DNA from: Alphaproteobacteria bacterium
GTDB lineage: Bacteria > Pseudomonadota > Alphaproteobacteria > JAOXRX01
Assembly (NCBI GenBank): GCA_025800285.1
Contig: JAOXRX010000039.1
Coordinates: 10,006-74,005 of the forward strand
Direction: 5' to 3'
Length of the DNA stretch: 64,000 bases
The position numbers and the translations under genes are program-made. The notes beneath the pieces were generated by a model. That model ran no database searches, was not told the origin of the DNA, and saw only the letters and a program-made list of their open reading frames with translations. Shown here one piece after another: positions 58,056 through 59,084 of the stretch; the stretch's first letter is position 1, and each line of letters begins with the position of its first letter.

Positions 58056-58595
58056 CTAAAAATATCTTTTTAGTAAACCGCTGAAACCAGAACCATGTCT
58101 AGCTTCATCTTTAGCCATTTCATGAACAGTATCATGAATAGCATCAAGATTCAATTTTTTAGCTTCTGTAGCTAAATCTTTTTTACCTTGGCAAGCACCA
58201 TGCTCAGCAGCAGCTCTTAACTCTAAGTTCTTTTTAGTAGAATCTGTAACAACTTCTCCTAAAAGCTCTGCAAATTTAGCTGCATGTTCAGCCTCTTCAA
58301 AAGCATATCTTTTAAATGCTTCTGCAATTTCTGGATAACCTTCTCTATCAGCAACCCTACTCATAGCTAAATACATACCTACTTCACAACACTCACCATT
58401 AAAGTTATCTCTTAACCCCTCTATAATATGTTCTGGAGCATCTTTTGCTATCCCAACAACATGCTCATCTGCATAACCCTCATCATCTTTTTTTTCTGTA
58501 AATTTATCTTGTCCTACTGCACAAACTGGACAAAGAATTGGAGCTTCATCTCCTTCATGAACATAACCACAAACTGTACATACAAATTTTTTCAT
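58056..58595 (-). CDS. reverse rubrerythrin (N-terminal rubredoxin-like domain plus C-terminal ferritin-like diiron domain)
   Basis: [10 protein letters not shown] ... CPVC rubredoxin Cys pairs at the N-terminus; EEAEHA and EARH diiron ligand motifs. Confidence 0.8.
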
Positions 58596-58613
58596 TACTA
58601 AACCTTTCCTATT

Positions 58614-59084
58614 TTAAATAAACTTTCCTTGTATGGTAATATTGACATCTTTTATGTCAAAACCCTCTATATTATTACTCTCTATAAAGTCTTTAACAAA
58701 GGAAATTATTCCATTATCAAAGTAATCCTTTATTAAGTCTTTTTCCTCATCTATTAAGTGCAAATGAAAATCTGTATTGCCATCATATTTAGCAACACCA
58801 TTATCACTGTCTATTTTTTTGATAAGATTATTTTTTTCAAATAGCTCTAGAGTATTATATACACTAGCTAAAGATATAACTACATTCTTATTTTTAAGTT
58901 TTTGCATCACATCTTCTGCAGTAAAATGAACATTTTTTACATCCATTAACTCTAAGATACTTAATCTTTGAGATGTAACTCTTATATTCTTATTTTTTAA
59001 CAGTGATAAATATTTATTTTTCACAATCGCCCTCTTTTTTAATGATTCTAAAATTAGAATAATTCTAAACTGTAATTTTGTCAA
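58614..59084 (-). CDS. Fur family (PerR-like) transcriptional regulator
   Basis: RVTSQRLSILELM ... HFTAEDV ... SLASVYNTLELF winged-helix; HLHL metal-site region; precedes the rubrerythrin gene. Confidence 0.7.
   Translation of the reverse strand: MTKLQFRIILILESLKKRAIVKNKYLSLLKNKNIRVTSQRLSILELMDVKNVHFTAEDVMQKLKNKNVVISLASVYNTLELFEKNNLIKKIDSDNGVAKYDGNTDFHLHLIDEEKDLIKDYFDNGIISFVKDFIESNNIEGFDIKDVNITIQGKFI

What the first reader, a model, noticed from the sequence alone, without database searches (positions are those of the whole stretch)
58056..59084. PerR-like Fur-family regulator plus reverse rubrerythrin, an anaerobe-type peroxide-defence module in an intracellular alphaproteobacterium
The rubrerythrin has its rubredoxin-like Cys pairs at the N-terminus (CTVCGY ... 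CPVC) ahead of the diiron four-helix domain. This is the reverse arrangement known from clostridia. It is preceded by a Fur/PerR-type regulator lacking the C-terminal CxxC pair. The pair sits between an IS481 element with repeat debris and recN, and its coding sequence looks less AT-rich than its surroundings. This suggests horizontal acquisition and adaptation to a microoxic or anaerobic host niche.
Basis: partly seen in the sequence, partly recalled or inferred. Interest (0 to 1): 0.55.

Follow-up and report, generated by a model that had tools for sequence, protein, structure and literature searches.

The report
PerR-like repressor plus reverse rubrerythrin operon
A small-genome, unclassified alphaproteobacterium carries a two-gene, probably self-repressed operon for removing hydrogen peroxide and oxygen, whose enzyme came from the anaerobe (Firmicutes-type) gene pool; this is a real but fairly ordinary case of an old gene transfer.

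Summary
ORF 58056-58595(-) is a reverse rubrerythrin. It has an N-terminal rubredoxin-like domain with two CxxC pairs, followed by a diiron domain. The ORF upstream of it is a Fur-family regulator with no cysteine at all. Its real start is GTG 59024 (136 aa).

The two genes form an operon. It has a TTGACA-17-TATTCT promoter, a unique perfect palindrome TTAGAATtATTCTAA over the -10, and a strong terminator after rbr.

The regulator keeps every canonical PerR residue (H37, N61, D85, H91, H93, D104 in B. subtilis numbering). Its nearest relatives are 31-42% identical and none is alphaproteobacterial. They sit beside rubrerythrin, peroxiredoxin, Dps or KatG genes and have similar boxes upstream.

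The enzyme is 78% identical on average to Firmicutes-type reverse rubrerythrins. That is as close as they are to each other. RecN's best hits outside the lineage are 44-45% identical; the named ones (43-44%) are alphaproteobacteria. A Lachnospiraceae MAG has the same gene order.

Horizontal origin is supported, but it is old. The rbr GC3 (12.8%) is the lowest in the window. The pair is conserved under purifying selection in a sister lineage. The IS481 is a later insertion.

"Intracellular" is not shown. This is a new member of a known kind, of modest interest.

The parts
59095..59130 (-). Hairpin plus T-run just after the recN stop codon; a putative recN terminator that would insulate the operon
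   Evidence: Read directly (AAAATAGCTCTGATAAAATAGGGGCTATTTTTTTT). In L004 the stem is a perfect 11-bp pair with different bases (AATAACTCTGA/TCAGAGTTATT). The rule-based scan did not report it because it has too few G-C pairs.
59056..59084 (-). Sigma-70-type promoter TTGACA-17-TATTCT
   Evidence: Best-scoring promoter-like site in 57700-59300, 10 of 12 matches. Both hexamers are unchanged in L004; the spacer has one change. The overall count of promoter-like sites in the region is no higher than in shuffles, so position and conservation carry the argument.
59054..59068 (.). Perfect 7-1-7 palindromic operator TTAGAATtATTCTAA overlapping the -10 hexamer
   Evidence: The only exact match in 64 kb, with 0 matches in 100 shuffles. 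It matches the Irr/ICE consensus TTTRGAAYNRTTCYAAA at 16 of 17 positions (PMC1698941) and the B. subtilis-type PerR box at 13 of 15. It is unchanged in L004 although the 113-nt intergenic region is only 87% identical. Related boxes lie upstream of relatives' genes.
59037..59051 (.). Adjacent degenerate second box TTAGAATCATTAAAA
   Evidence: Two mismatches to the palindrome. Its first 10 bases are unchanged in L004; the next two differ (AT to GC). Weak on its own.
58614..59024 (-). Cys-less PerR-like Fur-family regulator, 136 aa, GTG start
   Evidence: PF01475. An ungapped alignment to B. subtilis PerR (2fe3) places H33, N57, D81, H87, H89 and D100 on H37, N61, D85, H91, H93 and D104. Of the five metal ligands, H33 and H87 are invariant and D81, H89 and D100 at least 90% conserved in the 55-sequence alignment; in the 32-sequence alignment H33, H87, H89 and D100 are invariant and D81 nearly so. 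AlphaFold model pLDDT 94 with a Fur fold; Foldseek top hits include Leptospira PerR 5nl9. omega 0.13 against L004.
58056..58595 (-). Reverse rubrerythrin, 179 aa, starting 18 nt after the regulator's stop codon and preceded by an AGGAAAGG Shine-Dalgarno sequence
   Evidence: RUBY_RBDX aa 4-32 plus Rubrerythrin aa 61-174. 77-83% identical to Clostridia and Negativicutes proteins named 'NADH peroxidase' or rubrerythrin. omega 0.014 against L004.
57961..57992 (-). Intrinsic terminator ending the operon
   Evidence: 13-bp stem with 6 G-C pairs, followed by a T-run. Also present in L001.
56698..57776 (-). IS481-like element (transposase 56707-57699). A later insertion, not part of the module
   Evidence: 40-nt terminal inverted repeats, 93% complementary. 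rve_3 and IS481 family hits, NCBIfam 201 bits against a cutoff of 224. Absent at the same site in L001, with a 3-bp duplication (TTC on the + strand) flanking the window copy.

Best explanation
This is a self-contained, autoregulated two-gene operon for peroxide and oxygen detoxification.

**Proposed mechanism**
- Under reducing conditions a dimeric Fur-family repressor of the PerR type binds the palindrome TTAGAATtATTCTAA. It has no structural Zn(Cys)4 site. Its Fe2+/Mn2+ is held by H33, D81, H87, H89 and D100.
- The palindrome covers the -10 of the promoter, so binding blocks transcription of the repressor's own gene and of the reverse rubrerythrin.
- H2O2 reacting with the bound Fe2+ would oxidise a liganding histidine and release the repressor.
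- The induced reverse rubrerythrin then reduces H2O2, and more slowly O2, to water at its diiron site. Electrons enter through its N-terminal rubredoxin-like domain from an NAD(P)H-linked donor that is not encoded in this window.

**Origin**
- The enzyme gene came horizontally from the anaerobe gene pool, of Firmicutes type.
- The regulator belongs to a broad Cys-less PerR-like clade of non-alphaproteobacterial anaerobes, so the pair may have arrived together.
- The acquisition is old and fully ameliorated, and it predates the split from a sister lineage.

**Shown:** domain architecture, conserved ligands, operon anatomy, uniqueness and conservation of the operator, phylogenetic affinity, purifying selection.

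**Inferred:** the peroxide signal, repression, enzymatic activity, the electron donor, and whether the two genes were transferred together.
For: - **Architecture and operon signals:**
- **Operator:** unique and perfect. It overlaps the -10. It is unchanged in L004 although the spacer is 87% identical.
- **PerR residues:** the canonical PerR residues, including the N61 and D104 equivalents that separate PerR from Fur (PMC8638851, PMC4866751), are all present.
- **Fold:** Fur fold at pLDDT 94. Leptospira PerR, which also lacks a structural site, is the second Foldseek hit.
- **Neighbourhoods of relatives:**
  - L005: fur, Prx, KatG.
  - L021: Rbr, divergent from fur then Prx.
  - L028: Rbr, divergent from fur, Dps, Prx.
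  - L030: fur, Prx.
  - L026: fur, reverse rubrerythrin.
  - L034: reverse rubrerythrin, fur.
- **Boxes upstream of relatives**:
  - L021: TTAGAGTAATTCTAA
  - L023: TTAGAATATATCTAA
  - L026: TTATAATCATTCTAA
  - L028: TTAGAACGTTTCTAA
  - L005: GAGAATGATTCTC, twice
- **Known function:** reverse rubrerythrins are NADH-linked H2O2 and O2 reductases, and they are PerR-controlled in C. acetobutylicum (PMC7482061).
- **Horizontal origin:** rbr is 78% identical on average to 117 Firmicutes-type proteins, which are 80% identical among themselves. RecN's best hits outside the lineage are 44-45% identical, and the named ones (43-44%) are alphaproteobacteria.
- **Age and function:** omega is 0.014 for rbr and 0.13 for the regulator, and both are conserved downstream of recN in L004.
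Against: - No experiment exists. The regulator fails every NCBIfam equivalog cutoff (PerR 66.6 against 180, PerRA 64.6 against 200, IrrA 63.1 against 150).
- Its placement in the Fur family tree is unresolved (bootstrap 10%).
- The operator matches the Irr ICE consensus (16 of 17) better than the classical PerR box (13 of 15). Irr proteins share the same ligand residues, so an iron- or heme-responsive signal is not excluded.
- No rubredoxin or NADH:rubredoxin oxidoreductase gene lies in the window.
- Co-transfer of the two genes is not demonstrated. The regulator is at most 42% identical to anything outside its lineage, whereas the enzyme is about 80%.
- The Firmicutes regulators next to the closest rbr hits (L009, L010) are CxxC-type and even more distant.
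- Promoter-like hits in the region are no more frequent than in shuffles.
Confidence: 0.7

Rival explanations
1. The regulator is a divergent alphaproteobacterial Irr-type iron or heme sensor, vertically inherited. [quoted passage not shown] Only the enzyme would be foreign, and the signal would be iron or heme status, not peroxide.
For: - The operator matches the ICE consensus TTTRGAAYNRTTCYAAA at 16 of 17 positions (PMC1698941).
- That paper predicts Irr regulons consisting only of a rubrerythrin-like protein or a cytochrome c peroxidase in several alphaproteobacteria.
- Irr proteins also lack CxxC pairs.
- The NCBIfam IrrA and Irr matches cover the full length, at 63 and 59 bits.
- The host is an alphaproteobacterium.
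Against: - In the NJ tree the canonical Irr references plus P0303 form a clade with 93-96% bootstrap that excludes the window protein. Distances to Irr (about 1.8) exceed those to the non-alphaproteobacterial Cys-less group (1.14-1.35) and to B. thuringiensis PerR (1.59).
- Among the named proteins in the best 70 representatives, only one cluster (P0303, E-value 1.7e-13) was alphaproteobacterial Irr. Others were annotated as peroxide regulators or came from Ignavibacteriota or Bacteroidota.
- None of the 19 GTDB relatives is alphaproteobacterial.
- Equally ICE-like boxes occur upstream of relatives in Chloroherpeton, Bacteroidetes and Firmicutes next to peroxidase genes, so the box does not diagnose Irr.
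- No P. ubique-type Irr sequence was available for direct comparison.
Confidence: 0.15
2. The pair is an ancestral, vertically inherited alphaproteobacterial trait. The high similarity to Firmicutes would only reflect extreme conservation of the enzyme.
For: - Composition is native-like (rbr GC3 12.8%).
- The pair is conserved in a sister lineage.
- A more distant relative (L012) also carries a rubrerythrin.
- The family evolves slowly, with 72-80% identity between Firmicutes classes.
Against: - Among the 120 best hits, every one that carries an organism name, other than the window's own protein, is from Firmicutes.
- L012's rubrerythrin has the classical, not the reverse, domain order. It is not next to recN or a fur gene.
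- The core protein RecN is only 43-45% identical to its best hits outside the lineage, against about 80% for rbr to Firmicutes.
- The regulator has no alphaproteobacterial relatives.
Confidence: 0.06
3. It is an assembly or binning chimera: a Firmicutes fragment joined to an alphaproteobacterial contig.
For: The window comes from a metagenome-assembled genome. An IS element and repeats lie next to the pair.
Against: - The same recN-fur-rbr(-serS) arrangement appears in independent assemblies from different sources (JGI L001, Logan L002, ENA L003) and in a diverged relative, L004.
- L001 joins rbr to serS with no IS.
- Codon composition matches the host.
Confidence: 0.02

Closest known systems
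Clostridium acetobutylicum PerR / rbr3A-rbr3B (reverse rubrerythrin, 'rubperoxin') and C. difficile revRbr1/2
   Same: The enzyme has the same architecture: an N-terminal rubredoxin-like domain and a C-terminal diiron domain. Identity to clostridial family members is about 77-80%. Control by a PerR-type repressor is documented in C. acetobutylicum (PMC7482061).
   Different: The host is a small, AT-rich alphaproteobacterium. The regulator lacks both CxxC pairs and is encoded immediately upstream in the same operon. The operator half-site is TTAGAAT rather than TTATAAT. In C. difficile the genes are sigma-B dependent.
Leptospira interrogans PerRA/PerRB (PDB 5NL9), atypical PerRs without a structural metal site
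   Same: Fur fold, canonical PerR Asn and Asp residues, and no cysteinate motif (PMC8638851). 5nl9 is the second-best Foldseek match and the third-best sequence match.
   Different: Only 28% identity. The protein is below the NCBIfam PerRA cutoff (64.6 against 200). The regulon differs: catalase and peroxidases in Leptospira, rubrerythrin here.
Lachnospiraceae MAG locus L026 (CAYJAA010000002.1)
   Same: Same order and spacing: sigma-70 promoter, 7-1-7 box (TTATAATCATTCTAA), Cys-less Fur-family gene (P0268), then reverse rubrerythrin 78% identical to the window's. Low GC, 33%.
   Different: The regulators are only 37-40% identical. One operator half-site is of the classical PerR type. The locus is uncharacterised, so it is an analogue and not a reference.
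Alphaproteobacterial Irr / ICE 'minimal regulon' (Rodionov et al. 2006)
   Same: A Cys-less Fur-superfamily regulator in an alphaproteobacterium, an operator of the form TTTAGAA-N3-TTCTAA, and a rubrerythrin target.
   Different: The protein falls outside the canonical Irr clade and below the Irr and IrrA cutoffs. Its relatives are non-alphaproteobacterial and sit beside peroxidase genes.

Membership tests
Reverse rubrerythrin (revRbr / rubperoxin) | Rubredoxin-like Cys4 domain at the N-terminus, ahead of the diiron domain | tested here: met
   PF21349 at aa 4-32 with CTVC and CPVC; PF02915 at aa 61-174.
Reverse rubrerythrin (revRbr / rubperoxin) | Diiron four-helix-bundle ligand motifs (E...ExxH, twice) | tested here: met
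   The sequence contains GECCE...EEAEH and AAEHG...EMAKDEARH. The first half aligns to the sulerythrin and rubrerythrin diiron helices. The second half was read by eye only.
Reverse rubrerythrin (revRbr / rubperoxin) | Close sequence relationship to the clostridial family | tested here: met
   77-83% identity and E-values down to 1e-91 to Clostridia and Negativicutes proteins. Mean identity of 78% equals the within-group identity. Characterised Rbr3A and revRbr1 sequences were not compared directly.
Reverse rubrerythrin (revRbr / rubperoxin) | NAD(P)H-linked H2O2 and O2 reductase activity | not testable with these tools
   Known for C. difficile and C. acetobutylicum enzymes (PMC7482061).
Classical rubrerythrin (NCBIfam NF045767) | Score above the equivalog cutoff; C-terminal rubredoxin domain | tested here: not met
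   68 bits against a cutoff of 200, and the domain order is reversed.
PerR (peroxide-sensing Fur-family repressor) | Fur-family fold (winged-helix domain plus alpha/beta dimerisation domain) | tested here: met
   PF01475 at 2.6e-23. AlphaFold pLDDT 94. TM-scores of 0.76-0.80 to 1mzb, 5nl9 and 3f8n.
PerR (peroxide-sensing Fur-family repressor) | Regulatory site His37-Asp85-His91-His93-Asp104, with Asp rather than Glu at position 104 | tested here: met
   H33, D81, H87, H89 and D100 align without gaps to 2fe3. In the clade alignments H33 and H87 are invariant and D81, H89 and D100 invariant or at least 90% conserved. The criterion comes from PMC4866751 and PMC8638851. Irr proteins share these residues.
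PerR (peroxide-sensing Fur-family repressor) | Asn61 in the recognition helix (Arg in Fur) | tested here: met
   VYNTL, with N57 equivalent to N61. The criterion comes from PMC8638851.
PerR (peroxide-sensing Fur-family repressor) | Structural Zn(Cys)4 site (two CxxC motifs) | tested here: not met
   Zero cysteines. The motif is also absent from Leptospira PerRA and PerRB, which are accepted PerRs.
PerR (peroxide-sensing Fur-family repressor) | Curated model cutoffs (NF052545, NF047462, NF047461, NF047406) | tested here: not met
   66.6 against 180, 64.6 against 200, 48.7 against 250, and 36.9 against 200.
PerR (peroxide-sensing Fur-family repressor) | Per-box operator (AT-rich 7-1-7 dyad of the TTATAATnATTATAA type) at the target promoter | tested here: inconclusive
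   A perfect 7-1-7 dyad lies over the -10, but it matches at 13 of 15 positions, with G/C at the fourth position of each half-site. The consensus as printed in PMC12754779 is TTATAATAnTTATAA. The form searched, TTATAATNATTATAA, is the one I recall from B. subtilis work.
PerR (peroxide-sensing Fur-family repressor) | H2O2 sensing by Fe-catalysed histidine oxidation | not testable with these tools
   Needs mass spectrometry or EMSA.
Irr (alphaproteobacterial iron response regulator) | ICE operator TTTRGAAYNRTTCYAAA | tested here: met
   16 of 17 positions at 59053-59069. Expected 0.08 matches per window. The same core occurs with non-alphaproteobacterial relatives, so it is not exclusive to Irr.
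Irr (alphaproteobacterial iron response regulator) | Membership of the Irr clade; curated cutoffs NF045677 and NF045678 | tested here: not met
   58.7 against 170 and 63.1 against 150. The protein is excluded from the Irr clade, which has 93-96% bootstrap. SAR11-type Irr was not sampled.
Irr (alphaproteobacterial iron response regulator) | Heme-regulatory motif (Bradyrhizobiaceae only); heme binding | tested here: not met
   There is no Cys-Pro motif because there is no cysteine at all. Heme binding through HxH cannot be tested.
IS481 family insertion sequence | DDE (rve) transposase, terminal inverted repeats, target duplication | tested here: met
   rve_3, rve and IS481 model hits, 201 bits, just under the cutoff of 224. 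40-nt inverted repeats. A 3-bp duplication and an empty site in L001.

The most novel reading that the evidence does not exclude
The regulator would be the only alphaproteobacterial member found so far of a large, uncharacterised clade of Cys-less PerR-like repressors. That clade comprises dozens of 50%-identity clusters in Bacteroidota, Ignavibacteriota, Chloroherpeton, Bradymonadales, Victivallales and Firmicutes. Its operator core (TTAGAA-N3-TTCTAA) is the same as the Irr ICE. If so, the alphaproteobacterial Irr/ICE iron-heme system would be an offshoot of this peroxide-sensing lineage. The window's operon would then be either a relic or a re-acquisition of the ancestral state: a PerR-like protein controlling a rubrerythrin.
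Probability: 0.2. Interest if true: 0.5.

Novelty: new member of a known kind. Interest (0 to 1): 0.3.

Why it matters
If the reading is right, a genome-reduced, order-level-unclassified alphaproteobacterium relies on an anaerobe-style peroxide and O2 scavenger under a dedicated sensor. The organism is probably about 0.96 Mb, and its fur-rbr contig was assembled from a stony coral tissue loss disease lesion metagenome. This suggests that it lives at low or fluctuating oxygen, not as a classical aerobe. That helps in interpreting its ecology and its possible host.

More generally, the locus gives a compact, testable example of a Cys-less PerR-like repressor: one operator, one promoter, one target. 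Its operator is nearly identical to the Irr ICE, which bears on how Irr evolved within the Fur superfamily.

The operon itself, PerR plus reverse rubrerythrin acquired by horizontal transfer, is a known kind of module. Transfer of rubrerythrins between anaerobes is commonplace.

Tried and rejected
1. **IS-mediated acquisition: rejected.** L001 has the same operon with no IS481.
2. **Compositional evidence for recent transfer: rejected.** rbr has the lowest GC3 in the window, and its higher GC comes from first codon positions.
3. **Canonical Irr membership: considered seriously** because of the ICE match. The tree, the model cutoffs and the relatives' contexts do not support it.
4. **Co-transfer from the Firmicutes with the closest rbr (L009, L010): not supported.** Their regulators are CxxC-type and the most distant in the tree.
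5. **P0002 and P0003 as 'closest' rbr relatives: rejected.** Their high scores come from internal duplications.
6. **GTDB genome scan with RecN alone:** found nothing.
7. **Scan with the 15-sequence Fur alignment:** The 4-sequence alignment worked.
8. **Empty-site comparison in the 71% RecN relative, L012: uninformative.** Synteny differs on both sides.
9. **Biopython bootstrap:** timed out and was replaced by a numpy NJ.
11. **Supplement of Rodionov 2006:** not held, so the P. ubique irr-rbr site could not be inspected.
12. **Search for a separate rubredoxin gene or further operator copies in the window:** none found.
13. **Order-level taxonomy and lifestyle:** could not be settled. The named RecN hits are only 43-44% identical (Azospirillum and others).
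Full report
**1. What is there**

On the minus strand, recN (59138-60793) is followed by a Fur-family ORF and then by a 179-aa ORF at 58056-58595.

The 179-aa protein matches the rubredoxin-like RUBY_RBDX domain at residues 4-32 (CTVCGY...CPVC). It matches the Rubrerythrin diiron domain at residues 61-174. This is the reverse domain order. It scores far below the NCBIfam model for classical rubrerythrin (68 against 200 bits).

The upstream ORF matches PF01475 FUR at 2.6e-23 and contains no cysteine at all. 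So both CxxC pairs are missing, not only the C-terminal one.

The 156-aa reading from TTG 59084 is too long. That TTG belongs to the -35 hexamer TTGACA. The public annotation is 136 aa (P0121). GTG 59024 is preceded by AGAGGG.

**2. Operon anatomy**

- A hairpin plus T-run follows the recN stop codon. In a related lineage the stem pairs perfectly with different bases.
- Next comes TTGACA-17-TATTCT at 59084-59056, the best promoter-like site in the region.
- Over its -10 lies a perfect 7-1-7 palindrome, TTAGAATtATTCTAA (59054-59068). It is the only exact copy in 64 kb, and none appeared in 100 shuffles.
- A degenerate second copy follows at 59037-59051.
- The regulator's stop codon and the rbr start codon are 18 nt apart, with an AGGAAAGG ribosome-binding site between them.
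- A 13-bp-stem terminator closes the unit at 57992-57961.

**3. Is it real, and how old is it?**

The same fur-rbr arrangement occurs in independent assemblies:
- JGI contig L001. Its rbr protein is identical, and its recN-to-rbr stretch is 98.6% identical at nucleotide level.
- Logan contig L002, from run SRR15960039.
- ENA contig L003, a partial copy.

It also occurs in a diverged relative, L004. Against L004:

| Gene | Amino-acid identity | omega | dS |
|---|---|---|---|
| recN | 93% | 0.049 | 0.79 |
| regulator | 89% | 0.13 | 0.39 |
| rbr (first 138 codons) | 99% | 0.014 | 0.43 |
| bamD (partial) | not computed | 0.086 | 0.74 |

Both genes are therefore functional, and they were present before the two lineages split. 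The lower dS of the pair is unexplained. It could reflect codon bias or later exchange of the cassette.

The promoter hexamers and the 15-bp palindrome are unchanged in L004, although the 113-nt spacer is only 87% identical.

**4. The IS and the 'repeat debris'**

The IS481-like element spans 56698-57776 and has 40-nt inverted repeats. L001 lacks it. There, rbr's terminator region runs straight into the serS-proximal sequence, and the window copy is flanked by a 3-bp duplication. The IS is therefore a later, strain-level insertion and not the vehicle of acquisition.

The short repeats beside it belong to a dispersed intergenic family, AAGATTCTTC-N7-TCAGAA. It also occurs near 32.8 kb and 52.3 kb (16 hits against 2.75 expected).

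**5. Composition**

rbr is 35.6% GC against 30.5% for the window. Core genes such as the aldolase, GAPDH and TsaD genes are equally high. The excess lies in first codon positions (57%). Its GC3 of 12.8% is the lowest of 50 ORFs. The regulator gene is 24.6% GC. Composition therefore gives no evidence of foreign origin.

Against the Lachnospiraceae homologue, third positions at identical residues agree only 60% of the time, even though both genes are AT3-rich. This is consistent with an old event.

**6. Origin of the enzyme**

Among the 120 best hits of 8000, the only alphaproteobacterial name is the window's own protein. Every other hit that carries an organism name is from Clostridia, Negativicutes or Tissierellia. 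The usual annotation is 'NADH peroxidase'.

The window protein is 78% identical on average (maximum 83%) to 117 of these. They are 80% identical to each other, and 72-79% between classes. So it sits inside that diversity.

RecN of the same contig finds nothing above 45% outside its own lineage. The named hits are alphaproteobacteria, such as Azospirillum, Fodinicurvata and Sneathiella.

A more distant member of the lineage, L012 (RecN 71%), has no fur-rbr after recN. It carries a classical-order rubrerythrin 7 kb away.

Horizontal acquisition of rbr from the anaerobe, Firmicutes-type pool is well supported. Neither the donor nor the date can be resolved.

**7. The regulator**

It has almost no close relatives. 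The word-indexed search of 5.8 billion proteins found only itself, the 88% relative and one 38% hit. The exhaustive search of 1.84 billion representatives found nothing above 38% outside the lineage.

An ungapped alignment to B. subtilis PerR places H33, N57, D81, H87, H89 and D100 on H37, N61, D85, H91, H93 and D104. These are the regulatory-site ligands. Asn61 and Asp104 are the two residues used to tell PerR from Fur (PMC4866751 and PMC8638851).

An AlphaFold model built on 55 homologues has pLDDT 94 and a Fur fold. Leptospira PerR (5nl9) is its second-best Foldseek match. Leptospira PerRA and PerRB are accepted PerRs and also lack the cysteinate motif.

Most of the 70 nearest representatives also lack CxxC pairs. 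The named ones come from Ignavibacteriota or Bacteroidota, or are annotated as peroxide regulators.

A GTDB scan returned 19 relatives at 31-42% identity, none of them alphaproteobacterial. They came from:
- Bacteroidetes and Bacteroidales
- Acetobacterium, Eubacteriaceae and Pseudoramibacter
- Lachnospiraceae
- Chloroherpeton
- Bradymonadales
- Melioribacter
- Victivallales

**8. Guilt by association, and the operator**

The relatives sit next to peroxide-defence genes:

| Locus | Organism | Gene order |
|---|---|---|
| L005 | unnamed | regulator, Prx, KatG |
| L021 | Bacteroidetes | Rbr, divergent from regulator then Prx |
| L028 | Chloroherpeton | Rbr, divergent from regulator, Dps, Prx |
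| L030 | Melioribacteraceae | regulator, Prx |
| L022 | Acetobacterium | regulator, hybrid-cluster protein |
| L034 | Victivallales | reverse rubrerythrin, regulator |
| L026 | Lachnospiraceae | regulator, reverse rubrerythrin |

In L026 the reverse rubrerythrin is 78% identical to the window's. The locus has the same layout of TTGACA-17-TATAAT followed by a 7-1-7 box.

The boxes upstream of these genes resemble the window's:
- L021: TTAGAGTAATTCTAA
- L023: TTAGAATATATCTAA
- L026: TTATAATCATTCTAA
- L028: TTAGAACGTTTCTAA
- L005: GAGAATGATTCTC, upstream of both the regulator and prx
- L009: AAGAATGATTCTT

This comparative pattern is the main support for calling 59054-59068 the cognate operator and the protein a peroxide regulator.

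**9. The Irr question**

The box matches the alphaproteobacterial Irr ICE consensus TTTRGAAYNRTTCYAAA at 16 of 17 positions. Rodionov et al. predicted minimal Irr regulons consisting only of a rubrerythrin-like protein in P. ubique and some Rhodospirillales. Irr proteins are also Cys-poor and share the ligand residues.

Three results argue against canonical Irr membership:
- In an NJ tree, annotated Irr and IrrA references plus P0303 form a clade with 93-96% bootstrap that excludes the window protein. The window protein is an unresolved long branch at the base of the Cys-less group.
- The Irr and IrrA model cutoffs are missed by a wide margin.
- The same box core occurs in other phyla.

I therefore keep Irr as a rival (0.15). 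SAR11-type Irr was not available for comparison.

**10. Mechanism**

Reverse rubrerythrins of C. difficile and C. acetobutylicum are NADH-linked H2O2 and O2 reductases, with H2O2 the preferred substrate. They are PerR-repressed in C. acetobutylicum (PMC7482061).

By analogy, the metallated repressor occludes the -10, peroxide inactivates it, and the enzyme is induced together with fresh repressor. The electron donor is not in the window.

The anatomy, residues, conservation and contexts are shown. The signal, the repression and the enzymatic activity are inferred.

**11. The organism**

NCBI names the source 'MAG: Alphaproteobacteria bacterium'.

Run SRR15960039 is tissue from a stony coral tissue loss disease lesion of Stephanocoenia intersepta. 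The MAG table of that study lists SRR15960039_bin.19 as:
- 958,990 bp
- 97% complete
- GC 0.31
- Alphaproteobacteria, with no order assigned

It sits alongside Clostridia and Campylobacterota bins. This probably is the organism, but I could not prove identity.

The window itself encodes glycolytic enzymes, LPS and outer-membrane biogenesis proteins, a restriction-modification system and BspA-like LRR proteins. It contains nothing that demonstrates an intracellular life.

**12. Verdict**

The finding is real and correctly recognised. Horizontal origin is supported for the enzyme and is plausible for the pair, but the event is old.

It is a new member of a known kind of module. The most interesting by-product is the near-identity between the operator of this Cys-less PerR-like clade and the Irr ICE.

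Noticed in passing
window 56698-57776; L001 10800-10830: The IS481-like element (intact 330-aa transposase, 40-nt inverted repeats) differs between near-identical assemblies. It is present in the window and absent in L001, with a 3-bp target duplication.
   Followed up: yes
window 32773-32976, 52253-52326, 56644-56666, 57777-57850: A dispersed intergenic palindromic repeat family (AAGATTCTTC-N7-TCAGAA and its inverted partner) gives 16 hits against 2.75 expected. The IS inserted into one copy. It looks like a REP- or MITE-like element of this genome.
   Followed up: partly
window 58056-61615 versus L004: Synonymous divergence of the regulator (0.39) and rbr (0.43) is about half that of the flanking recN (0.79) and bamD (0.74). 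Either codon bias or a more recent exchange of the cassette between lineages could explain it.
   Followed up: partly
window 7957-8261 (+): An Rfam Rp_sR47 (Rickettsia sRNA47) match at 61.1 bits, just above the gathering score of 60. It lies antisense inside the ctpA-like ORF 7620-9011(-). It may only reflect conserved coding sequence.
   Followed up: no
window 17098-19171 (-): A cytosine-5 DNA methyltransferase-like ORF (read by eye) lies next to an Eco47II-family restriction endonuclease (PF09553, 1.7e-56). This looks like a type II restriction-modification system.
   Followed up: partly
window 13824-14504 (-): A protein with Tlde1 and YkuD (L,D-transpeptidase-type) domains, as seen in some secreted antibacterial effectors.
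   Followed up: no
window 22529-26068 (+); 37592-39260 and 41339-42274 (+): A 1179-aa multi-pass membrane protein has no Pfam match. Several lysine-rich ORFs have no recognisable family and look lineage-specific.
   Followed up: no
window 48674-50050 (+): A 458-aa ORF that looks like a fusion of RNase PH and an RdgB/HAM1-type NTP pyrophosphatase. This was read by eye and not tested.
   Followed up: no
window 11187-11201: TGATAATTATTATAA is one mismatch from the classical PerR box and is also Fur-box-like. It lies upstream of the GNAT acetyltransferase ORF 10532-11095(-). It could be chance in AT-rich DNA.
   Followed up: no
L012 16562-17149; L012 8001-9656: A relative with 71% RecN identity (on JGI contigs up to 558 kb) has different neighbours around recN. 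It carries a classical-order rubrerythrin, so rubrerythrins of two architectures occur in this alphaproteobacterial group.
   Followed up: partly
L010 888-1607; L011 753-1493: Two metagenomic reverse rubrerythrins (239 and 246 aa) contain an internal duplication of the first diiron helix pair. This inflated their HMM scores. It could be a real variant or an assembly artefact.
   Followed up: no
L005 7974-7988 and 8447-8461; L021, L023, L026, L028 upstream of the fur-like genes: Cys-less PerR-like regulators in Bacteroidota, Chloroherpeton and Firmicutes carry AGAA-N3-TTCT-core palindromes upstream of themselves and of prx or rbr genes. This is the same core as the alphaproteobacterial Irr ICE.
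   Followed up: partly
PMC11309003, Table S7 (SRR15960039_bin.19): A 0.96-Mb, 97%-complete, 31%-GC alphaproteobacterial MAG with no order assignment comes from the same coral-lesion run that yielded an identical fur-rbr contig. It is probably the source organism.
   Followed up: partly
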